Shown: one piece after another, positions 1 through 36,288 of the stretch
Layout: every line of letters begins with the position of its first letter
How positions within the stretch are numbered: the stretch's first letter is position 1
Origin: Emiliania huxleyi CCMP1516
Lineage: Eukaryota
Assembly (NCBI RefSeq): GCF_000372725.1
Contig: NW_005201287.1
Span: 527,081-591,080 of the forward strand
Length of the DNA stretch: 64,000 nt
Reading direction: 5' to 3'
Notes under the pieces: generated by a model
Told to the model about the DNA's origin: nothing
Databases searched by the model: none
What the model saw: only the letters and a program-made list of their open reading frames with translations
Translations under genes and position numbers: made by a program

Positions 1-3000
1 ACCAGTACCTCGACATCTTTGAGCCGCTGCTGCTCGAGGAGTGCCGCGCCCAGATCCTGCGCTCGATGGGCGAGTCGGAGCCGGCGCCGCACCACCTCAA
101 GCTCCTCTCAATCGAGCAGAACGAGCCCTTCCGCCTGATGCGCTTCCAGCCGCCGCCGCCGCCCGAGGGAGGCAAGCCGCACTTCTTCGAGACGGACATC
201 GTGCTCGTCTCGTACGAGCCGCTCGACATGGACGCGGCCGCCAAGCGCGGCGACGGCGAGGACGAGGACGAGCCCTCCACCGGCGGCGACTTTCACGCGC
301 TCGGGCTGGTCGCGTCGGGCGGCGGCTCAGAGCATCTGTCGATCAAGCTGCACCTTCCGTCGCAGCGGACGGCGCGGATGCCGCAGGCGCAGTTCAAGCG
401 GCTCTCGATGCTGCACCGCGTGATGGTCCCCTCCTCGGGCCACTGGTGCGTCCGAGAGGCCGTGCAGCGTGCTGCTGGCGAGGGGAGGCGCGTGGTGACG
501 GCGCCTCCTCGTCGCTCAGGTACGTGCAGAAGCTGGGCAACATGGTGACGATCAACCGCGAGTTCCAGGCGCTCTCCTCGATGCGAGACCAATCAACTCG
601 CCAATGATCGATTCATCACTTCCTCCCCCGGGCGCTGTACTCGATGCGGGACTAATCAGCGAATTCGTTCATTCCTCACTCCCCCAGGCGCTGTACTCGA
701 TGCGAGACCTGCCGCTGTGCGAGGCTCTGCTGGGTAGATGCGGAACTACGTGTGTGTTCACGCTCGAGCGCTCGAGAGGACACGCCTTCGGCTGTACTCA
801 GCTCTGCTCAGCCGCATGCACTTTATCCGCAGCCCTTGCATCCACGCGCTGCCCTCAGAGCACACCGCTCGCACACCGCTCGACTCTGCCGCTCCTGGCG
901 CAGGCGCTGCTGGCGCCTGGCCCGTCGCGGCTTCCCGCCTCCGCGACTCTCAAGCCGTCGGAGCGCCCGCTGCGCGCCGTCGAGACGGCAGCGAGCTACG
1001 TTTGACTAGCGCGCAGTCCTTGGTGTGGTCCATAGGAAGCCTTGCTGCGCGCAATCGAGACGCGATTCGACAAGTCGCAGCTGCAAGCGATCCGCCTCTC
1101 CCTCACCGGCCGAGGAGCGAGATGAGCCGAGATGAGCCGAGATCAGCCGAGATCAGCCGAGATCAGCCGAGATCAGCCGAGATGAGGTCCGCCCCTCCCT
1201 CACCGGCCGACGAGCGGCGCTCGTGTGGTTGGCCAGCTTCACAGCTGTCTCTGTCTGGACTGGCAGCCCCTGTATGACCTCTCTCTCTCTCTCGCTGCAG
1301 GCGTGACGCTCATCCAGGGCCCTCCTGGCACCGGCAAGACTAAGACCATCCTCGGCGCTCCCTCTCCCGCCCTCCTCGCGAGAGGCGCCCTCCTTGCCCC
1401 GAATGAGAGACTGGCTCCCACACACCCCCTCCAGGAATCCTCTCTGTCCTCCTCGCGACGAGGGACGCGCGCGCGCGGCAGGAGGAGGGCGCCGCCGCGC
1501 CGCCGCCCTCCGCCATCGCCCCCCTCTCCCCCGACGACCCGCACACCCGCCCGCCGCCCCCCTCGGTCGCCTCCCTCCTCGCCGCCGCGTCGCCATGGCT
1601 CCGCTCCAGCAGCTACGCGGGCATCGACGCGCCCGGCGTCAGACGCGCGGCCGCGCCGCCCGCCGCCCCCTCCTCCGCCGCCCCCTCCTCCTCCGCCGCC
1701 CCCTCCGCCGCCGCCCCCTCCTCCGCCGCCCCGGCCGCCCTGTCGCGTGGCGTCTTCCCGCACGCCGCCGAGACAGACCGCCACCTGTCTCTCGGCCGCG
1801 CCACGGTAGAGGCCCCTCCGAGGCACGTGCTAGTGTGCGCCCCCTCCAACGCCGCCATCGACGAGATCGTCGCCCGCATCCTCGGCCGCGACGGAGGCGG
1901 AGGGGGAGGGGGCGGCGGCATGCTCGACGGCGCGGGGCACCCGTGGGTGCCGGACTGTGGTGCGGGTGTGCGGCCTGGGGTGGCGGAGGGACTGACTCAC
2001 TCTCCCTCGCTTGGGAGGTGCCCGCCGTAGTGCGGGTGGGGCCAAACGTCAACGAGGCGCTGCTCGACGTGTCCCTCGAGACGCTCGCCAAGCGGCGCGC
2101 TGCAGAGAAGGGGTGCTCGTTTGACGCTGCCAAGGCGCGAGAGCGAGCCGAGATACAGCCGAGATCGAGGCGAGGTGCAGCCGAGGTGCTGCCGAGGTGC
2201 AGCCAAGGTATAGCCGAGGTGCAGCCAAGGTATAGCCGAGGTGCGAGGTGCAGCCGAGGTACAGCCGAGGTGTGATGCCTGAAGGTGGGCGTGCTCAACG
2301 ACGCGCAGATCGTCTGCACCACCCTCTCGTGCGCCGGCTACGCCATGTTCAACTCGCTCAAGAGCGGGTTCGACACGGTGCTCGTCGACGAGGCGGCGCA
2401 GGCGGTCGAGGTGTCCTCCCTCATCCCGCTCAAGTGCCACCCTCCCTCTGCCTGGAGCACTGCCTTCCAGGACATGTCCACGACATGTCCACGACATGCG
2501 CCCGAAGGTACGCCTGCCGCCGCCTCATCCTCGTCGGCGACCCGAAGCAGCTGCCCGCCACCGTCTTCTCGGAGGTGCTGTGATGTGAGAAGGGGAGGAG
2601 AGCCGTCATCTGACGTGCTACCGAGCAGCTCCCCGCCGCTCTTCTCGCCTCCTCGCGCAGGTTGCGACCCAGCAAAACTACGAGCAGTCTCTCTTCCAGC
2701 GGCTGCAGCGCGGCGGCCAGCAGGTCGCCCTCCTGCAGACGCAGTACCGCATGCACCCGCGCATCTCCTCCTTCCCGCGCGCCGCCTTCTACGACGGCGT
2801 CCTTCGCGACTCGCCGCACCTGGCAGAGATGCCGCCGCAGCCGTGGCACGAGGTGCGCGTCCTCGCGCCGTACCTCGTGCTCGACGTCGCCGACGGCCGC
2901 AGCGACGGGTGCGCGCGGGGGCCGTGTCCCGGCCATGTCCACGACACGTCCCGGACACATGCCTCGCAGGCCGCGCGACCGAGAAGCAGTCCTCGTGGCT

Positions 3001-3890
3001 CAACGATCTCGAGGCGCAGCTTGCCCTCGAGATCGTCCGGCTGCTGCTCGCAAGGCACTCTGCCGACCTGCAGCCCGCCTCAATCGGCATCATCTCGCCG
3101 TACAACGCGCAAGTGCGGCGCATCCGGCCGCGGCCTGCCCGACACGTCCAGGACGCGTCCAGGACATGTCCCGGACACGGCCCGCAGGTGCGGCACATCC
3201 GGCGAGTCCTCGCCGAGGCGCTCGGCGCCGAGACGGCGGCGGCGCTCGAGGTGAACTCCGTCGACGGCTTCCAGGGGCGCGAGAAGTCGGTGATCCTCCT
3301 CTCGACGGTGCCGAGACGAGAGCCGAGATTCGCCGAGATCGCCGAGATTGCTGGGATTCGCCGAGACTCGCCGAGATCGCTGAGATTCGCCGGGAGAATA
3401 GCCGAGAAGCCGGCCCTCCCCTCTCACGGCGGGACTTTGGGCCACGCGACCTTCCCGGAGCCCTCCCGGAGCCCTCCGACAGGTGCGGTCGGACTTCGGG
3501 CGGGAGCGCGGCCTCGGCGTGGGGTTCGTCAAGGACGAGCGGCGGATCAACGTCTCGATGACGCGCGCGAAGCACTCGCTCCTCATCCTCGGCCACGCCG
3601 CCACGCTGCGCCAGGCGCCCATCTGGGAGCGGCTGATTGACGACGCCAAGGAGCGCGGCTGCCTGCTCAAGGCAACCTCGCCCCTCTCGGTCTGGTTCGA
3701 GACGGCGAGCAAGCAGCGCGCCAAGGAGTGCGGCAAGCCGGCGTCGAGCGGCGGCGCGAAGCGCGCGCCGCCAAAGGTGGAGGCGGCGGCGGAGGGGGGG
3801 CGCGTGGAGGCCGAGGCGCCGGCGCGATCGCCGAGCGGGAGAGCAGCAGCAGCAAAGTCGACGAGGTCGCCGAGGAGGAGGCGCACCTAG
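1..3890 (+). CDS. SEN1: Sen1/senataxin (Upf1-like SF1B) RNA/DNA helicase, multi-exon, 5'-truncated by the window edge
   Basis: Helicase motifs occur in order across exons: YLDIFEPLLLEECRAQI, LIQGPPGTGKTKTILG (Walker A), VLVCAPSNAAIDEIV, AQIVCTTLSCAG, FDTVLVDEAAQAVE (Walker B), LILVGDPKQLPATV, YEQSLFQRL, LQTQYRMHPRISSFP, IGIISPYNAQV, VNSVDGFQGREK, RRINVSMTRAK. Stop TAG at 3888-3890. Confidence 0.9.
1118..1185. repeat. Intronic 10-bp tandem repeat (AGCCGAGATC/AGCCGAGATG)
   Basis: About 6 copies inside a helicase intron; related units at 3320-3400 and 41596-41636. Confidence 0.85.
2146..2272. repeat. Intronic 11-bp tandem repeat (GCCGAGGTGCA-type)
   Basis: About 10 degenerate copies in a helicase intron; same unit at 50820-50965 (SQR intron) and reverse-complemented at 63958-64000. 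Confidence 0.85.
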
Positions 3891-4039: not shown

Positions 4040-6022
4040 TTACTCGCTCGTGTCGGCCACGCCCATCTCGAAGAGCCACGCCGCCGCCCCCTCCTTGAGG
4101 GGCGGGTGCTCCGCGCCGATGTGCCGCACCGTCTCCACCAGCGGCTGCCTCTGCCTCGCCGCGGCTTGCGACGCCTCACCAAAAGAGGCCCCGAACGCCT
4201 CTTTGAGGCGTGGCTGGCGGAGGAGGGCGAGGAGCGACGCGGCGAACGGCGGGGCGTACGGCGGCGCGACGACGGCGAGGAGGCGGAGTGCGACGTGGCG
4301 CGCGAGGGAGAAGTCTGCGGCGCTGCTCGAGGCAACCTCGCCCAGCGCCTCCATCACGGGCGCCACCACGCCCCGCGCGAGGAGCGAGATGGCGCAGTCC
4401 ACCAGTCGCTTTTGCAGCGCGAGCCCGCCTTGGAGCTGCCGCAGCCGCGCGGAGAGCACGGCGCAGCACTGGCGCAGCAGCGCGGGCTGCGCCGCCGCGA
4501 CGGCCATCACCACGCCAACCTGCGCCTCGGGCGCCTCCTCGTCCTCGCTCGCGTCGGAGCGGCGGCCGAGCGCGCCTCGCTGCAGCCCCTCGTGCGCCCA
4601 CAGCAGGGCTCCGCCCGCCGCCGCCGCGTCGCTGCAGAGCGGAACCAGCCGCCGCGCCTGAGAGACAAGCGAGAGACAGGCGAGATATGGGCGAGAGAGG
4701 CGAGCCGAGAGACACGCCCGAAGTACCAGCCGCGCCTGAGAGAGGGGCTCCGACCCCTCCTCGCGGCACACACCGCTCGCCGCGCCGACCGCGCGCCGCG
4801 CCGCCGCCCATCCGCCTCCCGCCGCGCCTCCCGCCGCGCCTCCCGCCGCGCCGCCCGCCGCGCCGCCGGCCGCCGCGTCGCCAGGCGAGGCTGGCTCGCC
4901 CGAGGAGAGGGTGGCGAGCACGTCGAGCGCCGCGTGCAGCGCGTCGCCGGGAGGCAGACCCTGCCGCTGGGGCGGTGAGAAGGCGGCGGCGAGGAGGAGG
5001 CGGACGAGGGGAGGGCGGCGCAGCACGGGCAGGAGGGGCGAGGCGTCCGCTTCAGACGCGAGAGCTCTCAGCCGGACCGCATCCGCCGCGAGGAGAGAGC
5101 CTAAAGGGAGGCCTCCGAGCAGCCTCTCCCGACAAAGGCTCCTCCAGCCGGGGTTGCCGTCGAGTGCAGGGCAGCTGGCCCGACGCAGCGATGGAGACGC
5201 AGCAAGCGGCGAGAGGGGACTGGAGGGTGGCTCCGGCAGCGAGGAGCTCGAAGCGGTGTGCGCCTAAGGGGAGAGCGGTCAATGGCCACTCACGGAAGGG
5301 AGGAGAGGGAGAGAGGAGCAGGGAGGAGGAGCGGAGGAGCAGGGAGGAGCAGGGAGGAGCAGGGAGGGAGGCGGCGGCGGCGCACCGAGGCTTCGCTCGG
5401 CCGCCGCCGCCGCAACCTCCGCCGTCGCGTGCTGAAGCAGCGCAACCACCCCGGGCGGCACCACCTCCCCCTTGACCTCCCCTCCCCGCCCGGCCGCAGC
5501 CTCCTCGGCGGCGGCGCAGAGCCCGCCCAGCAGCAGCGCGGAGCAGGCGGCGCTCGCCTCGTCTCCAGCGCAGAGAGCGACCAGCGCCTTGCTCGCGCCT
5601 GGCCCGCCGCTCAGCCGCGCCGCCAGCCGGTCGGCGAGGCAGTCGAGGAGGTGGGCGACGGACGAACCGCCCGCGAGCGCCGCCGCGTCCCGCGACTCGC
5701 TCGTCCGCTCCGCCGCCTCGGCCGCGTGCGCCGGAGAGGCGAGGAGGCGCTGGACGGCGGTGTTGAGGAGCGCGCTGCTCGGGTGGCGCGCGTGCAGCGT
5801 GTACACCAGCTCGCGCCACCGCGCGCGCTCGAGGAGCTCGCCCAGCCACGGCGGGCCGCCCGGTGGGTCGCCCGCCCCGTCTGCGCGAGACGGGTCAAAG
5901 CGCGAGGCGCACAAAACGGCGAGCGTGTCGTCGAACGAGACGGCGATCTGCTCCTCGCTGTCGCCGGAGCAGAGGAGCCAGGCGTGCAGCGACTGGAGCC
6001 GCTCCTCCTCGGTGACTGGCAT
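4040..6022 (-). CDS. NELFCD: Negative elongation factor C/D (TH1) homolog, multi-exon
   Basis: PPWLGELLERARWRELVYTLHARHPSSALLNTAVQRL resembles the TH1 'PxWLxxxIxxxxWRxLxYxLAExYPxCLMLNF' block. LRRPPLVRLLLAAAFSP and the C-terminal LQKRLVDCAISLLARGVVAPV...ADFSLARHVALRLLAVVAPPYAPPF match the TH1 C-terminus (xLLSRGxVxPV...DxSLIRYFVxEVLxxIAPPYxxxF). ATG at 6022, TAA at 4040-4042. Confidence 0.75.
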
Positions 6023-6695
6023 GCGCGCTCTCGCCTTGCCGCAAAAAAGAATTGGTGTCGACACGTTCCCGTCGGCTGGACTGCCCTCGTCGAGTGCGTG
6101 TCGCCAACCAAGGCGGGACGCACTCAGGGACAGTGACGGCGGGACGCGGCTCGAGAGGCGGCTCCCGCGGAGGCACGGCTGGCACCCGTGGCGCGGGGCT
6201 CGTCTTCGGAAAGACCAGGATCGCTCTACTGGCAAACTTCTGGCTGACACGCGCGCCCGGTCGAGCCTTCGGCGGGCGCGCTGCGGTCGCACGCCTACCC
6301 AAGTCATATGCCACGGCGTGCGATCTAGATTCAGCACACGCGCCTCTGCTCGCAACCACTCATCCAATGAACTGTCGTCACCCATGAGTGCGAGTTAGGG
6401 CTAGCGGCTGGCCAATAGCCTGTGAGGAGGGCGTCCATAGACACCTCACAAGACCCCACACACGGTCTCGTCCGTGCCTTGCGGCCGGCGACGAGATTGC
6501 TAGAGGCGGAGCAAGCCTGCTCTAGTCTCACACGTTCGCCCCTGTCGCCTGTCTGTGTTGTTGTGCTGTTGTTTGTCTCTTGGCACCTTGGAGTGCTGGG
6601 GGGGGCGACAGGGGGGACGTGGCCTGAGTGATGTGTACGCCCACTCAGGATGTGTGGCAGCCCGCTGGCTGTGTGTCTTGTGAGCTTGTTTGTGT

Positions 6696-18893: not shown

Positions 18894-20460
18894 CTGAATC
18901 AGGCAGCAGCAGGCTGCTGCTGCTGCCACAGCAGCAGTCTGCTGCGGCCCCAATACGCAAGTTAATGACCAGCATTGCTGCCGGGGGCATTCGAGCCGCC
19001 ACAGCCGGTGTGCGGCCGTGCACTGCCACCTGCCCGCGGCTACGCACATGTGCGCTCGCATTGGATGACGCCCTGCTGATGGACCTGCGTCGCCTAGCTG
19101 CACGAGAGCAATGCCGCACGAGCGGCGGCCGTAGCATACACTGCGAGCACACTCGGTGCAGCTGCGAGGTGCAGCAAGAGCACGTCGTTCCTGCCTCTGA
19201 TGCCACTCTCGCGGCTTGCAGCGCGTCACTCCATGGTCACTCGCGCATGCTCTCCAGGAGCTATGGCGGGCGTGTGTGTGGTTGTAGCCTGTGTTTGGCC
19301 GGTGTTCTCCTGACCCGTTTACTATCAGTACCATGCCTGGGGGCCACAATAATCGCACACGGGGAGCGGCTCAGGGGCCCAGTGAAGCCGCGGAATCGCC
19401 AAATGTCACAACCCATGCCACCCAGGGCTGGACCTAGTCGGTAGTCCGGTGTGCCCGCCGGCGCCGCCGCGCAGGTACAGGTGAAAGAAAATTTGAGGCA
19501 ACCCCCCAAATGATCACGGCCGACTTCGCCCGCATTATAGAGGCTCCCGCCGATCTTAGACCGCGTAAGCACCCCAGCGTGACGCGTCACACTTAGACCC
19601 GCTAAGCCTCGCGAGGCTCAGAACTTAGCCCGCTACTACCCAACCTGCAACCAGTGTGGACTGTGGTCTGTCCGTCTGTGGACTCTGTGTGCGGCAGTGT
19701 GCGCGGCACGCGGTGCCGCGCACGTGTACGTGTGTCGAGATCCGCTGTTCCACCTCAGCCGCGTGCGCTTAGCCAGAGAAAGGACGGCGTATCGATGCGA
19801 GCAATGCCAATGGGGGTTGGGGGCTGATAGGGGGTTAGGGGCGTATTTCAAGAGACCTGTGAGGCAGCTGCGAGCTGGCCGTCAGGAGGTTGGTGTGTCG
19901 GCACACAAGCACAAACGCGCTCACTGGATGCTGCAGTACGATACGCTCCAACCCCACCACTCATCGGTCGGCTCCTGGGTCTGGGGCACGATCACCGGCA
20001 TCAGTGTAGAGTCGCCGGCTTGGGTAGAGTCGCCGCCACCCTTGGGCGCTGCAGCTCGGCTGCCAACTCTCCAGTCGCAAAAGTCGTCCGACGAGGACGC
20101 GTCGTCGCTGCTCGCCACGCCCCACTCCTCCAGGAGGCGGGCGATGACCGCCGAGAGCGGCTCTGGCTGCGGCGGAGGCGGCGGAGAGAGAAAGAAGCCT
20201 CGAGCAGCGCCTACCTCTGTGATGGACGACCAAGAGGTCCTCACGGGCATCCACGAGCGAGCTCGGGGCTGCACCTGCTCCTTGCGCGGGGGCAGCCTGT
20301 CCCTCTTCAGAAGCTCGGCAGGCAGTGGACGTGATAGCGGTGAACCGGTCGCGGGTCGGGTCGCGCGGGCCGCTGCGCGCCTGTGGTGGGTTTTTTGTTT
20401 TTAATTTGTTTCGGTTTTTAATGCAGAGATTTCTTTTGGTTGCGGCACACTCGTTGCCCG

Positions 20461-22114
20461 ATGAACGGCGAAGCGAGCATCCGCTGCGTCGTCCACCTGC
20501 GCGGCCTTCTCTGGTCGTGCACGCCTGACGACGTGCGAGCATCTGTCTCGCCGCTCCTTCCTGCCCGTTGTTTCTTGCACGATGTCTTCCTGCCGCTCGA
20601 TGCACGGGCGCGCCCCTCCGGCACCGCCGTGCTCGTGCTGCACGCGGAGCGGCCTGCCGCCGCCTCGAGCGAGCGCAGCGTCGACGCGGCGGTCGCCGCC
20701 GCCGCACGCCGCATCGCAGTCGCTCTGGACGGCGCGGTCGTTCGCGGCGATGACGATGCCTCAGAGTCCGTGCGCCACCTCCGTGCCACGCCTTCGTCCG
20801 CCCGCGCGCTCAAGGAGAGCCGCGCCCGCTCGTCTGCCGCCGCCGCTCGTGCTTTGTCGCTCGCGCCGCAGAGCTTCAATGCAGGCGCCGCAGCCGCCAC
20901 CACTGCCATTGCCGCTGCTCCGAGCCGTCGTGACTTTGTCGTCGTCTGCCACGCGGCGGCGGCGGCGGCGAGTGGCGCCTTTGAGCTGTCGGACCTCAGC
21001 CGTGGGCGCGTCGACCTCATCGCGAGGTGATCCCTCTCCTCCTCGCCCCGCACGGTCATGTCCAGATCACGCCCAAGACACGTCCACAACACACGACCAC
21101 CCCGTTCTGCAGATGCGCCTCTGCCGCCCTCTTCACGTCGCACGGCGTCCGGCGCGGCTGCCGCCTCTGGCTGCCTCTCGTCGGTGCGCTCCGCCTCGCC
21201 ACCCGCACACTGCCCGCACACAGGGCCGCCACCTCAGACGCGTCCACCGCGCACCTCACCCTGATTCCGCGCCACAGCCCGCGATCATACCCTCATCTTC
21301 GAGATTGTATTTGTCGAGGCGCCCACCACACTCGCGTGTCCGTCCAGGCGGCGGCCTCACCCTCTGTCTCGACGGAGACCGCGCGCGCCGGCTGAGGCCC
21401 GGCGAGCGCTCGACCTATCGAGCATTGGCGAGGATTACTTACTTCATACGTCGAGCTTACAGGCCCGACGAGCGCTCAATCGCCGCGCCTCTCCGCGTGG
21501 TGCTGAGGCGGCACGTGCAGGAGGTGGTGCCCGGGGGGGAGGAGGAGGCTGCGGCCTCGGACACGGCTGCAGCACCCGCCGGTGTGGCTGGGGAAGCGGA
21601 GGGGGGTGGTGGGGTGGACGGCGGCGGCGAGGGCGGCGGCGGCGGCGGCGGCGGCGAGCGTGGCAAAGGAGGTAGCGGTCTCGGAGGCGGCGAGTGGAGT
21701 TCGCAAGGGTGGAGCGTGCACGGTGGCGACAGCCTCGAGTCGCTGCTTGACAAGCTTGGGTGCGCGTCGGCGGAGGGGGGGCGGTGCGGCGGGCGGGGCG
21801 CCTGCGGTGGCCGCACGCGGCTGGTTGCGCTGCACGAGGGCGGCGGACCGCTCGGGCGAGTGGTCGCCTCCAGCGCCGCGCACGAGGCTGGCGGGCGGGC
21901 GGCTGGCGGCGGGCGGGAGGCGGGCGAACCGGCTGGTGGGGAGAGGCGGAGGGTGGTGGCAGTGCTGGGGGACCACCTCGGCCTTACGACGCAGGAGGAG
22001 GAGGCGCTTCGGAGGCGCGGCGCCGCCTTCTGCACGGTCGGCCCGACGGCACTGCTCAGCAGCCACTGCATCGTCCTCGCCCACCACGCCCTCGACATCC
22101 TGGATGCGGGGTGA
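20461..22114 (+). CDS. trmY: RRM-like domain fused to TrmY-family SPOUT tRNA (pseudouridine54-N1)-methyltransferase
   Basis: Predicted exons 20461-21026, 21113-21183, 21348-21396, 21463-22114. Spliced protein: RDFVVVCH...FELSDLSRGRVDLIARCASAALFTSHGVR...LCLDGDRARRLRPDERSIA...LHEGG...VLGDHLGLTTQEEEAL...VGPTALLSSHCIVLAHHALD, collinear with TrmY motifs (GRxDxxxRC, SHxxR, PDERS, LxDH, LGP, H, LD). N-terminal VHLRGLLWSCTPDDV...RPSGTA resembles an hnRNP F/H-type RRM. Confidence 0.85.
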
Positions 22115-22998: not shown

Positions 22999-24976
22999 AT
23001 GCCGGAACAGATGACGATGATGGAGGCAATCTTTCGGGAGGACACGGACGCCCTGCGCCGTCTCTGTGAGCAGCATGATGTCGACGCACCGCTCATCCGT
23101 CCTGATGGCTCCCCGTGTCCGCCGGCAATCGTGCTCGCCATCATCAAGGCGGGCCCCGCACATCACCCTCGTGCCGAAGCCCTTGCCATCGCAACCCCTG
23201 CCGTTGACCGTTGACCCACCGCACCCGTGTCCCCAGGGAAGCGCGGAGTGCGTCGATATTCTCCTGGCCCACCAGCCGGAGCTCAACGACCTCGACGTAC
23301 TCGGGATTCCTTGCTGCCCGCTCACGATGGCGGCGCAGGTAGGCAAGACGCGGATCGTTCGCGCGCTCCTCAAGGCCGGCGCGGTGGCGGACGTTGTCAG
23401 CCTGTCGGACGGCAGCACCGCCCTCCTTACGGCGTGCGAGAACGCCGAATTCGATGTGGTGCAGAGCCTCATCGAGGCGGCCGCCGACGTCAACCACCAA
23501 AAGTATGGAGGCATGACGCCGCTCGGCCTCTCCATCAGCAAGTACTGCCGCCTCGGCTGCATCGAGGCGCTCATTAAAGCGGGCGCGAGCCTGGCCGGCG
23601 AGGCGAGTCTGCCTCCGCGATATATGCCACCGCCTTCGCAGCCTCGGCTCTCCCAGCCCCACGCGTGTCGCGAGACCCTCCCCCACCCGCCACACTCACC
23701 TCTCCCGGCGCCTCCCCCTTCCCCGAGGCGATCGACGATAGCGAGCTCTGCCAGGGCGGGCTGTGGCACATGGTCGGCCCCAAGGCTAGCCTCCCCCCCC
23801 TCCTCGCCGCCATCTTGTTTGGCATGGAGCATTGCGTCCCCCTCCTCTCGTCGTACGGCGCCCCGCGGGCGGCGCAGCGGCAGATGCTCGGCTCGCCCGA
23901 AACGACCTCGGTCCCCATCCTGTCGCCCCTTGGGGGGCTGAGCAGCCAGTTCCTCCAGATGACCATGATGTTTACGTCCTCCTCGTCCGAGCAGCGCACC
24001 GTCACGCTCACCGCTGAGGCGCTCTGCGGCGCGGCCGAGGGGAGCGAGCACGTGCACCCCTCCGTGCCAAAGGGCAGCGGCCGCCTCCTCTCGTGGCTGG
24101 AGGAGTCTCGCGACTGGACGCCGCTCCACCACATCGAGGCGCTGAGCAAGGAGCGCGCCCTCGCGCTGCTGCGCGACGGTGCCAACACCCTCCCCTCTAC
24201 CTCCCTCGCGCGTGTGTCCACACCCCAACGTAACGGGTCACACGCACAGGCGCCAAGCTCCACGCCGGCTCCCCCTCGCCGCTTGAGCGGGCGCGCGCGA
24301 TCGGCGACACCCTCTCGCTGTACGAGCGCGTCGAGGTGCACGGCCTCACGCGCGCGGCACTCAACGGGCTCGTCGGCGTGGTGGTGGGGTTCGACGAGGA
24401 GAAGGGCCGCTGCGTCCTCCGCCTCGAGGAGCGCCCGAGCCCGAGTGCTGCCGTCAGGGGACTGTGCCACACACGCCACCTCTCTGAGCGACAGATGGCG
24501 TCACGCTCTACAGGAGTCGCAGTCGGAGATTGCTCGCGCAACCGGCGTCGACTGGAGCACGGCCGACGAGAAGCGCGAGGCGCGCCACGTCTCGATCAAG
24601 CCCGCCAACCTCAAGGGAGAGCAGGCGCGGCTGCCTCCTCGAGGACTTGTACTCGTGCAACGCCTCCATGCCCCCACCCCGCGCCCGCCCCTCCCACCAC
24701 CACTCACTCACCGCTCGCGCCCGACTGGCGCCCTGCTTGCTGTCGCGACGCACGAGTAGTCGCTTGTGGCGTGTGCAGGTCGCCTCTCTCCTCCTCGAAG
24801 CGGCCGTCTGGTCGCCGCGCTCGCACCACACTTTCCCGGCCGAGGCCCGCGCTCGCGCCGCCGAGCTCATGCGCATCGGCTACCTCTTCGCGCACGGCAG
24901 CGACCGCGGGCGCACCACTGAGCTCGTCGACGTCTGGCGCGGCCACGTCGTCCCCTTCGCGGTCGAGCGCGAGTGA
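22999..24976 (+). CDS. Ankyrin-repeat protein, multi-exon
   Basis: PLTMAAQVGKTRIVRALLKAGA, GSTALLTACENAEFDVVQSLIEAAADVN, GMTPLGLSISKYCRLGCIEALIKAGA, DWTPLHH; stop TGA at 24974-24976. Confidence 0.8.
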
Positions 24977-32112: not shown

Positions 32113-34470
32113 TTACTGGGAGAAAAGGGAGAGGGGGCTGTCCGATGTGGCGGCAAACTTGATGTCCCTGCGAGAGCGCCTCAGCTTAGCGACCGCCGCC
32201 TTGTGCTTCCTTCGCTCCGCAAGAGTCAGGTCCGGCGAGACCCCACCGTTGCCCTCCCCCTCCTCTCCTGCAACGCCAGCTATGCTCGTGGCACAAATGA
32301 TGGCCTGCGTCAGCGTCCCGACGAGCTCCTTCGCCTCATCTACCGTGGTGGCGACTAGCGCCGCGTCGAAGCCCTCGGACGGGGCCGGCCGGCTCAGCTC
32401 ACTCGCAAACTTGTGCACGACAGCGGCCGCTCGCTCTCCGGCCGGCAGCGTCGGGTGGCGCCTCCGCACCATCACGCGCCCGAGGCACTCCTCCACCGGG
32501 AGGTCGAGGTGCACGCTGGCGACAACACAACCATGCTCGCGGCCGAGGGCGACCCACGGTTCCCGCTGAGCCGGGTCGGCGTTGCAGCGGTCGATGATGA
32601 CGCTGCGCCCCGCCCGGAGCGCCTCTGTGGCGGCCTCGATGCACAGCCTGCGGGTGCCACACTCATCCTGGCTCACGTGTCGCAGGCGCCGCCCGACCGC
32701 CTCGCCCAGCTGCCCGCACAGGGTCGTCTTGCCAGAGCCAGGCAGTCCCACAAGAGTGAGGAGCAGAGGCTGGCCAGCCACGGCATGGAGCGCCGCACCC
32801 GCTGTCTCCTCGGGCGGGGGGAGGCGTCGAGCCGCCTCAATCGCCGCCTCCACCTCTCCAATTGGCGCATCGCGAACCCACTCCGCTCCGCCGGTAAGGG
32901 ACAGTCGGCGCAAATCGGCCGCCACCTCGTCATACAGCGGCCGGAGGCGGGGGAAGTAGGAGAGGAACTCGTCGCCCTCGCGGCAGCGCGCAACCTCGAG
33001 CAGGCGCCGCCGCTGCAGTCGGGGATCGGCACCCCCTCCCGAAGCAACGCCCTCCTCGCCGGGCGGAAGGCGGTGCAGCGCCACGTAGCCGGGCGACTTG
33101 ACTTTGATCCGGCGGAAGGCGGAGTCCACGCAGACAAAGCCCTCCTGCTCCACCGGATTGAGTGCGCACGCCGCTGCCTTGACGCTCGTCAGGTCATGCG
33201 GGCCGGGAAGCTTGCGCGGCGCCGCCCAGCCGAGCTGCGCAGCCGCCTCCTCGACGTCCTCCTCCACGAGCGTCGTCAGATCCCGCGCGCCGATGAGGGT
33301 GAGCGACGCTCTGGAGTGCCTCACCACGATCGTGTTTCCCGGAAGGCAGAGCTCAAAGGTGTAGCAGCGGCCGGTGGGCTCAGGCAGCCGGTAGCCCGAC
33401 GCCGCAAACGTCTCCCAAAAGTGCGAGGCGAAGGTCCCGACGCCCACTCCCGGCACCTCGCCCGCTGCGTCGGGCACGCGCATCGACGAGACGTGCCAGC
33501 GGTCGCAGTGGTGGTAGAGGGTGGCGATCGAGCCGTCAAGCTTCTCGTACACGCGCGCCGTGCTCCAGTCAAAGGCCTTGCGGACGGCGGCCGCCGCCGG
33601 CTCGTCCGCGTTGAAGAACTTTGTGAAGGGCAGCGCGACCACCCTCCAGCTCCCCTTCTCGAGGATGAGCCCGCGACACTCCTGGACAACCTCGTTGGCG
33701 AGGTCTGACTCGCGCTGCGAGTACGAGAGCTGGACGAGCGGCAAGTGCGGGTGGAGGCGCGAGGTGAGCTTGTAGGCGCTGCAGAGGGACGTGAGGTTGG
33801 CGCCAGAGCGCAGCTGTCGGACGATGCGGAGCGTGGCACGCTCGTCGCGACGGCGCGAGGCCTTGGCCGAGGTGCTGCAGCTCGCTAGCGGCACGAGGGT
33901 CGGTGGGTCAGCGCCTGCTGCAGCGCCCACGGCGGCGACCGCCGCCTCTGACGTTTCCTGCCCCTGGAGCCAGGAGGCCCTCTGAGCAAACGAGTGCAGA
34001 GCAGCCACGAACTCGCCGCGCGGGTTGGCGCAGCGGCGCGCTTGCCGGACGGCGGCTAGTGCCTCGTCAACGCCAAGGCCGCGATACTTGATCAGGTACG
34101 CCATCACCATCGTCGTGGAGCGGCAGATTCCCGCCTTGCAGTGGCAGAGGACAGTTCCTCCCTTGGCCAAGTGCAGGGCGATGAAGTCAGCGGCTGGGTC
34201 GAGGTGTCGACCAGCCTTTGCGTGACTGTCGTCCTTCAGCCGCACGTCTAGGTAGGTGAACGTGTCCACGAAGTGGCAGCGGCATCCACACGCGATGATC
34301 GCAGTGACACCGGCGGCTTGCAGCTTCTCGCGGTTGGAGGCAAACGACTCGCCGGATAGGAGCAGCTTTGAGCTTTCCGTGTCGAGGATGACTGCGGCGC
34401 CGACCGGGCCGTGGCGCTGGGCCACAGGAGCGCGCGGGGCGCCGTAGGCCTTGTTGTTGCGCTTGGGCAT
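32113..34470 (-). CDS. Tri-domain protein: dual-specificity phosphatase + T4 Rnl1-like ATP-dependent RNA ligase + P-loop polynucleotide kinase (AAA_33)
   Basis: DSP signature VLCHCKAGICRS (about 34117-34150). Ligase motifs ECRGLIL, LPFTKFFN, YEKLDGS (motif I, about 33529-33549), YTFEL, EGFV, RIKVK. Kinase LVGLPGSGKTT...VSQD...VIIDRCN...RRHPTL...EGF. Intronless; ATG at 34470. Confidence 0.9.
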   Translation of the reverse strand: MPKRNNKAYGAPRAPVAQRHGPVGAAVILDTESSKLLLSGESFASNREKLQAAGVTAIIACGCRCHFVDTFTYLDVRLKDDSHAKAGRHLDPAADFIALHLAKGGTVLCHCKAGICRSTTMVMAYLIKYRGLGVDEALAAVRQARRCANPRGEFVAALHSFAQRASWLQGQETSEAAVAAVGAAAGADPPTLVPLASCSTSAKASRRRDERATLRIVRQLRSGANLTSLCSAYKLTSRLHPHLPLVQLSYSQRESDLANEVVQECRGLILEKGSWRVVALPFTKFFNADEPAAAAVRKAFDWSTARVYEKLDGSIATLYHHCDRWHVSSMRVPDAAGEVPGVGVGTFASHFWETFAASGYRLPEPTGRCYTFELCLPGNTIVVRHSRASLTLIGARDLTTLVEEDVEEAAAQLGWAAPRKLPGPHDLTSVKAAACALNPVEQEGFVCVDSAFRRIKVKSPGYVALHRLPPGEEGVASGGGADPRLQRRRLLEVARCREGDEFLSYFPRLRPLYDEVAADLRRLSLTGGAEWVRDAPIGEVEAAIEAARRLPPPEETAGAALHAVAGQPLLLTLVGLPGSGKTTLCGQLGEAVGRRLRHVSQDECGTRRLCIEAATEALRAGRSVIIDRCNADPAQREPWVALGREHGCVVASVHLDLPVEECLGRVMVRRRHPTLPAGERAAAVVHKFASELSRPAPSEGFDAALVATTVDEAKELVGTLTQAIICATSIAGVAGEEGEGNGGVSPDLTLAERRKHKAAVAKLRRSRRDIKFAATSDSPLSLFSQ

Positions 34471-35442
34471 GGCTAGCGGGTCGTGGACGCGTTCGGACGC
34501 GTCGTGAGGGGCGTAAAACCCCAAAAAGTTTTTTTGTGATCGGGGGCACGGGACGCGGCACAGAAGGGGCACAAACGTCAGGCTACAAACACGGGGAGGC
34601 ACGTAGTGACGCAAGGGAGTCTAGGCGACGGTGGCGTCCTCCGACGCCGCGGCGAGCCTGCCTGTGACTGAGCTCGGTCGGTCGCAATCTCATTCGCCGC
34701 CGCGAGCTGCAGCGCGACTGACATGCGCTGGGCCTGCAGCGACAGCCACGTAGACCGCGTCGACCAGCTCGCCTCGTCCTCGTGCTGCCGCTTGGAGAGC
34801 TTGATGCTTGTTGCGCATCTTGTCCTTCATCATTCTGGTAGACGCAGCCGCTTGACCGCGTTGCACACCGGAAAAAGGTTTCTCGACCAGGTACGTCTGT
34901 ACGTCGGTGTCCGAGCGCGAGAGGGCGGCGTGCGCGGGTGCGCGTAGTCCGCCTTCTTGTTCCGACGCTTTCGCCCAGTCCCGTGCCTGCGGAACATCTG
35001 AAGGCTGTCTCGCCGGAGGCTCGCCCCAGCATCTCGGGTTCACTCGCCCCCCCGGGCAAGAAGGGAGGACCCCGTGAGGCGTGGGAGTGATTGGGGCCGG
35101 CTTTGCTTTTTCTCTCCGTGAGGACGATGGCTTCTAAGGAAGCCGTCGTCTGCGCCTTGTCGTGTGAATCGTGCGTGTGCGAGAGCCTTTTGCATCTGTA
35201 AGAAAAAAGAAGATGCTGACGGAAAGTGTGGTCTGAGCGCCTTGTAGGTGGCATGAAGGTTGCAGCGAGAATCGGCGAGGGACTGCGAAGGGAGATAGAA
35301 AGAGGCAGACGACAAAGGGTTAGGGTGGGCGACGGCTAGCACCACACTCCTCTCCTTAAAATCATCGTGTTTTCTTCTTTGAGCGCCTTGTACTCGAGTA
35401 AAAGTTCTGCCACCCCTCGCCGCTGAAGACAGTGCTCTCGCG

Positions 35443-36288
35443 ATGCCCAACATGGACGTCTCGCTGGACGAGCTCATCGCTTCGAACGCCAAGCAGGCGT
35501 CGAAGAAGCCGGGCCGCGGCGGTGGCGGGCGCGGGCGCGGCGGCGGGCGCGGCGGGCGCGGCATCACAAAGCCCGGCAAGAGGGCGGTTGTGGTCAAGAA
35601 AAAGGCCGGTGGTGGTGGTGGCGGCGGCCGGAAGCGGCAGGGCGCCGAGGTAAAGATCGGAGCTATGACGGATATCAAGCTCGCGGCGGGCGCCGTCGCC
35701 AACATGATGCGCGAAGGGACGCCGCCGAAAGTACTCGCCATCAGCCCGACGTGCGTCAACGCGGCCGTCAAGACGCTCGCGCTCGCCCGCCGCTACCTCG
35801 AGGAGGAGGGACTCGAGCTGATGGCGACGGTCGACTTTCCTGAGTTTGACGAGTCGGCCAACTCGGTCTCTCTCTCTCTCTCTCAAAAGCCCTCCTAATC
35901 CTTGTCTTCCTGCAAACCCTCACGGGCTCGGTCGTCTCCTCTCCAGGCGAACGTCGCGCTGCACCTCTCTCAGAAGCGGAAGCGGACGGACCTGTCGACG
36001 GTCGCGGCGCAGCTGCAAGTCTCCTCCTCCTCCGAGCCGTCCAAGGTAGCGGGCGCCGTGGCAGGCACGGCCCGCGAGTGCGCAGACCAGCCCGTCAAGC
36101 GGCTGTGCGTCTCGTGCGCCGGGCCGGCGGCGATGCTCGTCTCGCTCCAGGCGGTCTACCTCGCCCGCCGCTACCTCGAGGAGGACGGGCTCGACCTCTC
36201 CGTCGTGCCAGAGTTCGAGAATGTCGAGCGCGGGCCGTCGATCGTCCATCTCTTCACGCTCGTGCACAAGCCGAACGCGGCGCTCTGA
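35443..36288 (+). CDS. Tandem SpoVS-domain protein with N-terminal ALYREF-like (MDxSLDxxI) motif and RGG tract
   Basis: Exons 35443-35865 and 35947-36288 (GT-AG, phase 0). Two SpoVS-like units: VKIGAMTDIKLAAGAVANMMR...CVNAAVKTLALARRYLEEEG and LQVSSSSEPSKVAGAVAGTAR...AGPAAMLVSLQAVYLARRYLEEDG..VVPEF, compared with SpoVS LKVSAKSxPNSVAGAxA...GAGAxNQAVKAxAIARGF...PAF. Confidence 0.8.

What the first reader, a model, noticed from the sequence alone, without database searches (positions are those of the whole stretch)
20461..22114. Archaeal-type TrmY (m1-pseudouridine-54 methyltransferase) in a eukaryote, fused to an RRM-like domain
Seen: after removing three introns, the full TrmY motif series is intact, preceded by a quasi-RRM-like domain. 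Known: TrmY makes N1-methylpseudouridine at tRNA position 54 in archaea, with scattered bacterial homologs, whereas eukaryotes typically have m5U54 from Trm2. Inference: this alga may install m1-pseudouridine in tRNA or, through the RRM, in another RNA. The introns argue against prokaryotic contamination.
Basis: partly seen in the sequence, partly recalled or inferred. Interest (0 to 1): 0.8.

Follow-up and report, generated by a model that had tools for sequence, protein, structure and literature searches.

The report
Algal TrmY methyltransferase fused to qRRM
A coccolithophore alga transcribes and splices a gene that joins an RNA-binding domain to an intact relative of the archaeal tRNA enzyme TrmY; it belongs to an unstudied family in algae and other protists that likely makes 1-methylpseudouridine, probably in tRNA, though no activity has been tested.

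Summary
Real and expressed. The gene (20461-22114, +) matches Emiliania huxleyi model EMIHUDRAFT_449096, which is annotated 'hypothetical, partial' and stops before the SAM-binding knot. RNA contigs of three studies splice introns 1 and 2. The third (66 nt, GC-AG, in frame) is leaky: retained in two runs, both forms implied in a third. The C-terminal part is PF04013/TrmY, not Nep1, and keeps the GRxD, PDER and DH motifs of archaeal TrmY that Vibrio-type TrmY lacks; it stays under the NCBIfam TrmY cut-off. The N-terminal domain is a quasi-RRM closest to hnRNP F/H. It is not a one-off: 36 of the best 150 profile hits have the same fusion, inside a wider eukaryote-type TrmY group with named members in two diatoms and Ancoracysta; many of those carry plastid-type leaders, while this copy has none. 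Best reading: an m1-pseudouridine methyltransferase, most likely for tRNA position 54. Activity, substrate and a Pus10 partner are untested. Reviews read list TrmY as archaeal; no eukaryotic member turned up in my searches. This scan noted the fusion once before on another genome (e1-7377225).

The parts
20461..21026 (+). Exon 1: quasi-RRM, predicted linker helix, start of the TrmY domain up to the GRxD motif
   Evidence: Covered by RNA contigs from 20462; equals the start of the E. huxleyi model P0250
20485..20799 (+). Quasi-RRM (about residues 9-113); loop-1 motif RGLLW, loop-5 motif decayed to RHLRA
   Evidence: 68.8 bits against a family profile, shuffles at most 9.6; Atlas RRM clusters 0.90; family profile hits hnRNP H/F, ESRP1, GRSF1
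20929..21026 (+). First strand and GRxD motif of the TrmY domain (from residue 157)
   Evidence: Profile alignment; conserved columns
21027..21112 (+). Intron 1, GT-AG, 86 nt; a stop follows the donor if unspliced
   Evidence: Joint seen in X1, X4, X13
21113..21183 (+). Exon 2: RC and SH-x-x-R motifs of TrmY
   Evidence: Hits PF04013 positions 35-57; in RNA contigs
21184..21347 (+). Intron 2, GT-AG, 164 nt
   Evidence: Joint seen in X1, X4, X13
21348..21396 (+). Exon 3: strand and loop leading to the PDER motif
   Evidence: Alignments A2, A3
21397..21462 (+). Leaky GC-AG intron 3 (or allelic insert), 66 nt, in frame, no stop, flanked by a direct repeat (16 of the first 17 bases alike); retention inserts 22 aa before PDER
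   Evidence: Retained in X1 and X13 contigs; branch points in X4 match a mixed population; skipped in NCBI model; repeat
21463..22114 (+). Exon 4: PDER helix, two Gly/Ala-rich loop inserts, LHE-x-G strand, SAM-binding knot region, stop
   Evidence: PF04013 positions 149-195; RNA contigs cover 21463-21592 and 21665-22114; 21593-21664 is a repeat the tool skipped
21947..22102 (+). SPOUT knot / SAM-binding region (LGDHLG ... HCIV ... D); missing from the public model
   Evidence: Best PDB match 2qmm, E 7e-8; P0250 ends at residue 247

Best explanation
The gene is spliced and transcribed and encodes a quasi-RRM joined to a complete TrmY-family SPOUT domain, which likely acts as a SAM-dependent pseudouridine-N1 methyltransferase in the nucleus or cytosol, most probably on pseudouridine 54 in the T-loop of some tRNAs. 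Shown: expression, two introns, domain order, retention of the archaeal invariant residues, a family with the same design, and no leader peptide in this copy. Inferred from homology: a homodimer, SAM binding in the knot, and specificity for pseudouridine followed by U or pseudouridine. Inferred and untested: that Pus10 supplies pseudouridine 54 in this alga, and that the quasi-RRM holds a G-rich strand (such as the G residues before position 54) to open the T-arm at sea temperatures. Odds: m1-pseudouridine chemistry about 0.7; tRNA-54 as main target about 0.45.
For: Family: PF04013 and NF002560 are the best hits; the family profile matches 2qmm (E 2e-37) and Mj1640 (E 3e-30), with no Nep1 chain among the 33 matches at E<=0.01; an AlphaFold model of the compact relative P0003 (pLDDT 87) matches Mj1640 at E 1e-17, TM 0.83 of target, and Emg1 only at E 3e-6, TM 0.56. 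Active-site integrity: the window has the consensus residue at 29 of 34 columns that are at least 90% conserved in 32 archaeal-type TrmY, including G182 R183 D185 R189 C190 S198 H199 R202 P-D-E-R D421 H422 D462; all 11 fusion relatives share 19 of the 34; three Vibrio-type proteins differ at GRxD and PDER. Selection: 8 synonymous against 4 non-synonymous differences among runs, expected synonymous share 0.28, p 0.006. Chemistry: Mj1640 methylates pseudouridine but not U, prefers a following U or pseudouridine, and works inside human cells (PMC13171889, passages). Substrate: human PUS10 makes pseudouridine 54 in some cytoplasmic tRNAs and Mj TrmY methylates it in vitro (PMC6380271, passages). 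No hydrophobic leader in 13 of 13 rows of the grade that holds this protein (heuristic).
Against: No activity data. The fusions score 108-123 bits (six full-length ones) and the partial E. huxleyi model 61 bits on NF002560, under its cut-off of 183, while an archaeal control scores 268, so orthology of function is not certified. Pus10 could not be looked for in this genome; one search found no paper with Pus10 and haptophytes. 13 of 15 rows of the diatom-containing clade and 5 of 16 rows of one RRM sub-clade start with a hydrophobic leader, which points to plastids, where I know of no Pus10 (recalled); the wider group may therefore have another target. Archaeal TrmY needs no extra domain for the T-arm (PMC9508554, passages), so the added RRM may mean a different RNA. 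In this copy the loop-5 motif has lost its aromatic residue and glutamate, kept as an aromatic in 24 of 27 relatives, and the retained intron places 22 aa before PDER, where 29 of 31 fusion relatives have a spacing of 48 residues from GRxD and none exceeds 52.
Confidence: 0.5

Rival explanations
1. Same chemistry, other RNA: the quasi-RRM steers the enzyme to pseudouridines in snRNA, rRNA or mRNA next to G-rich tracts, and leader-bearing relatives act on plastid RNA.
For: Mj1640 is promiscuous for pseudouridine without tRNA structure and labels 33-60% of pseudouridine in cellular RNA preparations (PMC13171889, passages). The RRM is of the hnRNP F/H type, which binds GGG through loop motifs (PMC5449602, passages). 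Leaders in relatives.
Against: The catalytic domain keeps the archaeal motif set unchanged. The last aromatic of the hnRNP F loop-5 consensus is absent in all 11 relatives in alignment A3, so GGG specificity is not assured.
Confidence: 0.27
2. The family is a catalytically changed or inactive TrmY-fold protein: another base methylation, or an RNA-binding role only.
For: Long stem branch to the fusion clade (1.64 changes per column); under the equivalog cut-off; the T and second G of the archaeal N-terminal motif are lost.
Against: Both the putative RNA-contacting motifs and the SAM-knot motif are kept in nearly all members; pseudo-enzymes usually lose one of them (own knowledge).
Confidence: 0.13
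3. The family is active but the E. huxleyi copy is weakened or switched by splicing: only the intron-3-skipped form folds the PDER loop correctly.
For: Retained form is the assembled path in X1 and X13; decayed RRM loop 5; long end branch.
Against: Both forms keep PDER. Intron read-through is general in this species: 89% of 535 introns inspected (PMC4028052, passages). Synonymous excess.
Confidence: 0.1

Closest known systems
Archaeal TrmY (COG1901 / DUF358 / PF04013; Mj1640, PDB 3aia, 3ai9; AF_1056, 2qmm), tRNA m1-pseudouridine-54 methyltransferase
   Same: Same Pfam family, same predicted fold (relative P0003, TM 0.83-0.85 of target), 29 of 34 conserved columns.
   Different: Eukaryotic, spliced, N-terminal quasi-RRM and linker helix, two long loop inserts; under the NCBIfam cut-off; separate branch in all three trees; substrate unknown.
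Vibrio-type bacterial TrmY homologues (VC_A1059, PDB 2qwv)
   Same: PF04013 fold and the DH knot motif.
   Different: They lack GRxD and PDER and do not group with the fusions.
Nep1/Emg1, the known eukaryotic pseudouridine-N1 methyltransferase of 18S rRNA
   Same: SPOUT fold, same reaction as proposed here.
   Different: No EMG1 Pfam hit in the scanned relatives, no sequence-profile hit, weak structural match only (TM 0.56); no RRM.
hnRNP F/H, ESRP1, GRSF1, Glorund quasi-RRMs
   Same: Best RRM matches of the family profile (E 6e-18 to 4e-7); loop-1 G-x-x-W/F in 27 of 27 relatives.
   Different: Single copy fused to an enzyme; last aromatic of loop 5 replaced; further decayed in this copy.

Membership tests
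TrmY / PF04013 | Pfam PF04013 score above the gathering cut-off, better than other SPOUT families | tested here: met
   36.2 bits on exon 3-4 and 48 bits on the N-terminal model P0250, cut-off 25.5; full-length relatives 58-108 bits
TrmY / PF04013 | NCBIfam equivalog NF002560 cut-off (183 bits) | tested here: not met
   Window pieces 53 and 61 bits, full-length fusions 108-123, archaeal control 268. The whole spliced window protein was not scanned.
TrmY / PF04013 | Invariant residues of archaeal TrmY (GRxD, RC, SH, R, PDER, DH, terminal D) | tested here: met
   the set is defined from my alignment of 32 sequences, not from a mutagenesis paper
TrmY / PF04013 | SPOUT fold closest to Mj1640 | tested here: met
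   Shown on relative P0003; the window's spliced protein itself was not folded
TrmY / PF04013 | SAM-dependent methylation of pseudouridine 54 of tRNA | not testable with these tools
   Needs an assay
TrmY / PF04013 | Co-occurrence with a pseudouridine-54-forming Pus10 | not testable with these tools
   No genome held
TrmY / PF04013 | Homodimer | not tested
   Inferred from PMC5372735 (passage)
Nep1/Emg1 | EMG1 profile match or closest structure | tested here: not met
quasi-RRM (hnRNP F/H type) | RRM homology and fold | tested here: met
   P0003 model matches RRM structures. The single-sequence model of the window's own domain was inconclusive (pLDDT 62, no match at E<=0.001)
quasi-RRM (hnRNP F/H type) | Loop-1 motif R-G-L-P-(W/F/Y) | tested here: met
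   RGLLW in the window (one change); G-x-x-W/F in 27 of 27 relatives; consensus from PMC5449602
quasi-RRM (hnRNP F/H type) | Loop-5 motif R-Y-(V/I/L)-E-(V/I/L)-F | tested here: not met
   RHLRA in the window; relatives keep R-aromatic (24 of 27) but not the final F
quasi-RRM (hnRNP F/H type) | Binds G-tracts | not testable with these tools
   Needs a binding assay

The most novel reading that the evidence does not exclude
TrmY is an old eukaryotic enzyme, kept with Pus10 from the archaeal host and lost in animals, fungi and land plants; it survives in haptophytes, ochrophytes, Provora and others, was sent to plastids in some lineages, and in the lineage of this gene gained a quasi-RRM that lets it write 1-methylpseudouridine into RNAs beyond tRNA, possibly mRNA or snRNA. 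That would be a natural, mesophilic, RRM-guided m1-pseudouridine writer in a eukaryote.
Probability: 0.2. Interest if true: 0.88.

Novelty: new variant of a known kind. Interest (0 to 1): 0.63.

Why it matters
Reviews place TrmY in archaea only (PMC5372735, PMC9508554; passages) and the known eukaryotic N1-pseudouridine methyltransferase is Nep1, acting on 18S rRNA. An expressed, conserved eukaryotic TrmY group would add a second route to m1-pseudouridine, the base used in mRNA vaccines, and would change the textbook split of T-loop chemistry between domains. It is directly testable in cultured E. huxleyi and diatoms. A cold-water enzyme with its own RNA-binding domain could also be useful for pseudouridine labelling, which now relies on the thermophile enzyme Mj1640.

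Tried and rejected
Word-indexed searches with window pieces found nothing, because of low-complexity inserts and short exons; an alignment query worked. Prokaryotic contamination: rejected (spliced contigs; identity to the E. huxleyi model; eukaryotic neighbours such as TH1 and a PH domain). Nep1/EMG1 or RsmE: rejected. Chance fusion or wrong gene joining: rejected, since single RNA contigs join RRM and TrmY exons and 36 representatives share the design. The 66-nt segment as a repeated mobile element: no second copy in the window; the genome was not available. A signal peptide from the upstream ATG at 20421: out of frame by one base, in a T-rich stretch; taken as chance. Single-sequence fold of the RRM: inconclusive. 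Donor of the gene: not resolved; the careful 73-row tree did not finish and a quick tree stands in; prokaryote sampling is one archaeal phylum, 20 unnamed representatives and 3 Vibrionaceae. Metagenome scan gave 3 loci, none eukaryotic-looking. No tRNA gene in the window. The share of spliced against retained intron 3 stays open, as only one read-laying result is in hand and it is made of contigs. No complex prediction was run.

Full report
Gene structure. The frame starts at 20461 and ends at 22114. Three removable segments give a 445-aa protein: 21027-21112 and 21184-21347 (GT-AG) and 21397-21462 (GC-AG, 66 nt, in frame, no stop). Fourteen of 15 listed runs hold the stretch, from 6 studies; I laid 4 of them. 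X1, X4 and X13 (three studies; only X13 is on record as RNA) splice introns 1 and 2; X9 runs through the introns and may be DNA. One X13 contig joins exon 1, exon 2 and 21347-21592 without a gap, so it retains the third segment; X1 does too. In X4 the contigs end at 21401, run 21372-21490 and start at 21461, which are exactly the four ends expected if both forms are in a k=31 graph; the skipped contig itself was not among the rows shown. The stretch 21593-21664 is a repeat the tool skipped, so continuity there is not shown.

Organism and annotation. The exon-1 cluster holds Emiliania huxleyi CCMP1516 EMIHUDRAFT_449096, 'hypothetical protein, partial'. Its 247 residues equal the start of the three-intron model and stop before the SAM knot. 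In this species most donors are GC and 89% of 535 inspected introns showed read-through (PMC4028052, passages), so a leaky GC-AG intron is ordinary here.

The enzyme domain. PF04013 and NCBIfam TrmY are the best hits. Against 32 archaeal-type TrmY proteins (30 from genomes of one archaeal phylum, plus two database proteins), the window keeps 29 of 34 highly conserved columns, among them GRxD, RC, SH, R202, PDER, DH and the last D; three Vibrionaceae proteins lack GRxD and PDER. Which of these residues are catalytic is inferred from conservation: the primary TrmY papers were not held. The equivalog cut-off is not reached. A family profile finds the solved TrmY structures first and no Nep1 chain among 33 matches. 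A model of the compact relative P0003 shows an RRM, a long helix and a SPOUT domain, closest to Mj1640 and far less to Emg1. Of 15 differences listed, I dropped 2 in intron 2 and set aside 1 that keeps the stop; the other 12 are 8 synonymous and 4 not (p 0.006). This is a small pooled sample.

The RNA-binding domain. Pfam does not see it in the window, but a profile of 27 relatives does (68.8 bits against at most 9.6 in 500 shuffles), the Atlas returns RRM clusters (0.90), and the family profile's best RRM matches are hnRNP H/F, ESRP1, Glorund and GRSF1. Quasi-RRMs bind GGG by loop motifs (PMC5449602, passages). The family keeps loop 1 and most of loop 5; this copy has lost the loop-5 aromatic and glutamate.

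The family. A search of proteins of 329-2000 aa gave 13 hits among 7992 scored candidates; 11 are RRM-TrmY fusions. A profile search of 1.84 billion representatives gave 2425 hits at E<=0.001; of the best 150, 36 have RRM and TrmY (some are fragments, one is this gene's own exon 1), 85 TrmY only and 29 RRM only. Of 30 proteins looked up, four clusters carry an organism: E. huxleyi (fusion), and without RRM Skeletonema menzelii, Thalassiothrix antarctica and Ancoracysta twista. All other rows are unnamed; calling them eukaryote-type or prokaryote-type is my inference from length, leaders and tree position, and that the other fusions are haptophyte proteins is likely but not shown. Trees: 12 fusions form one side of a branch at 100/100 (48 rows); 72 eukaryote-type rows do so at SH-aLRT 99 (109 rows, LG+G4); under the mixture model on 73 of those rows the split has 76, or 95 if one unnamed row moves across, and the fusion clade has 96 with two RRM-less rows inside (quick tree). 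No donor is identified.

Location. By a simple hydrophobicity heuristic, 13 of 15 rows of the diatom-containing clade and 5 of 16 rows of one fusion sub-clade start with a leader, several ending in AF/SF-type motifs like the ochrophyte plastid signal (PMC5462543, passage); 0 of 13 rows of the grade holding this protein do. Contigs cannot show the 5' end, but the public model starts at the same ATG. This copy is therefore likely nuclear or cytosolic, and some relatives likely plastid.

Mechanism. Archaeal TrmY methylates pseudouridine 54 made by Pus10 and accepts an isolated T-arm (PMC9508554, PMC7912444; passages). Mj1640 acts on pseudouridine, not U, prefers a following U, and works in human cells (PMC13171889, passages). 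Human PUS10 makes pseudouridine 54 in some tRNAs (PMC6380271, passages). The simplest reading is the same reaction on tRNA-54, with the RRM adding RNA grip; the RRM and the plastid-type relatives keep another target open.

What is in print. [quoted passage not shown] Searches for TrmY+eukaryot, DUF358, COG1901, PF04013, Pus10+haptophyt, 1-methylpseudouridine+algae+tRNA, SPOUT+methyltransferase+Emiliania and a mixed algal query (listings only, not all matches listed) showed no paper on eukaryotic TrmY. Three relevant papers were not held and no supplements were read; they may mention eukaryotic homologues. JGI auto-names some members as TrmY. m1-pseudouridine is listed in a figure legend of a trypanosome tRNA LC-MS study without discussion (PMC12242769, section 23), so its absence from eukaryotic tRNA should not be assumed.

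Verdict. Observation confirmed with one correction. New variant of a known kind: a eukaryotic TrmY group with a quasi-RRM fusion; function inferred, not shown. Interest 0.63.

Noticed in passing
window 21395-21481: The leaky intron is flanked by a direct repeat (16 of the first 17 bases alike) that supplies both its donor and acceptor context; relatives have no insert here, so it looks like a young intron born from a short duplication or insertion.
   Followed up: partly
P0113-P0172 (diatom-containing clade); P0079-P0087: TrmY homologues with signal-like leaders and AF/SF motifs, suggesting plastid-targeted TrmY in ochrophytes and some fusions; many RRM-less members carry a basic insert after the PDER helix.
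   Followed up: partly
P0198: Eukaryote-type TrmY fused to zinc knuckles instead of an RRM.
   Followed up: no
window 32116-34620 (-): Long open frame with dual-specificity phosphatase, T4-type RNA ligase and AAA_33 kinase domains in one chain: a candidate all-in-one RNA end-repair enzyme.
   Followed up: no
window 35383-35895 (+): SpoVS domain (E 6.5e-12) behind a basic RGG-rich stretch in a eukaryote.
   Followed up: no
window 19827-20343: Covered by contigs of X1, X4 and X9, not X13; a minus-strand frame fits a small divergent gene sharing the AT-rich stretch at 20385-20445.
   Followed up: partly
window 20421-20528 (+): Short upstream frame that starts like a signal peptide but is one base out of frame with the gene; run X9 differs from the window just before 20448.
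   Followed up: partly
window 4043-6394 (-), 1407-3887 (+), 23021-23938 (+): TH1 (NELF-C/D) domain gene, a helicase with AAA_11/AAA_12 domains, and an ankyrin-repeat gene.
   Followed up: no
L001:2-1710: Archaeal-looking trmY lies directly before a gene that looks like pus10 (my reading of the sequence, not scanned).
   Followed up: no
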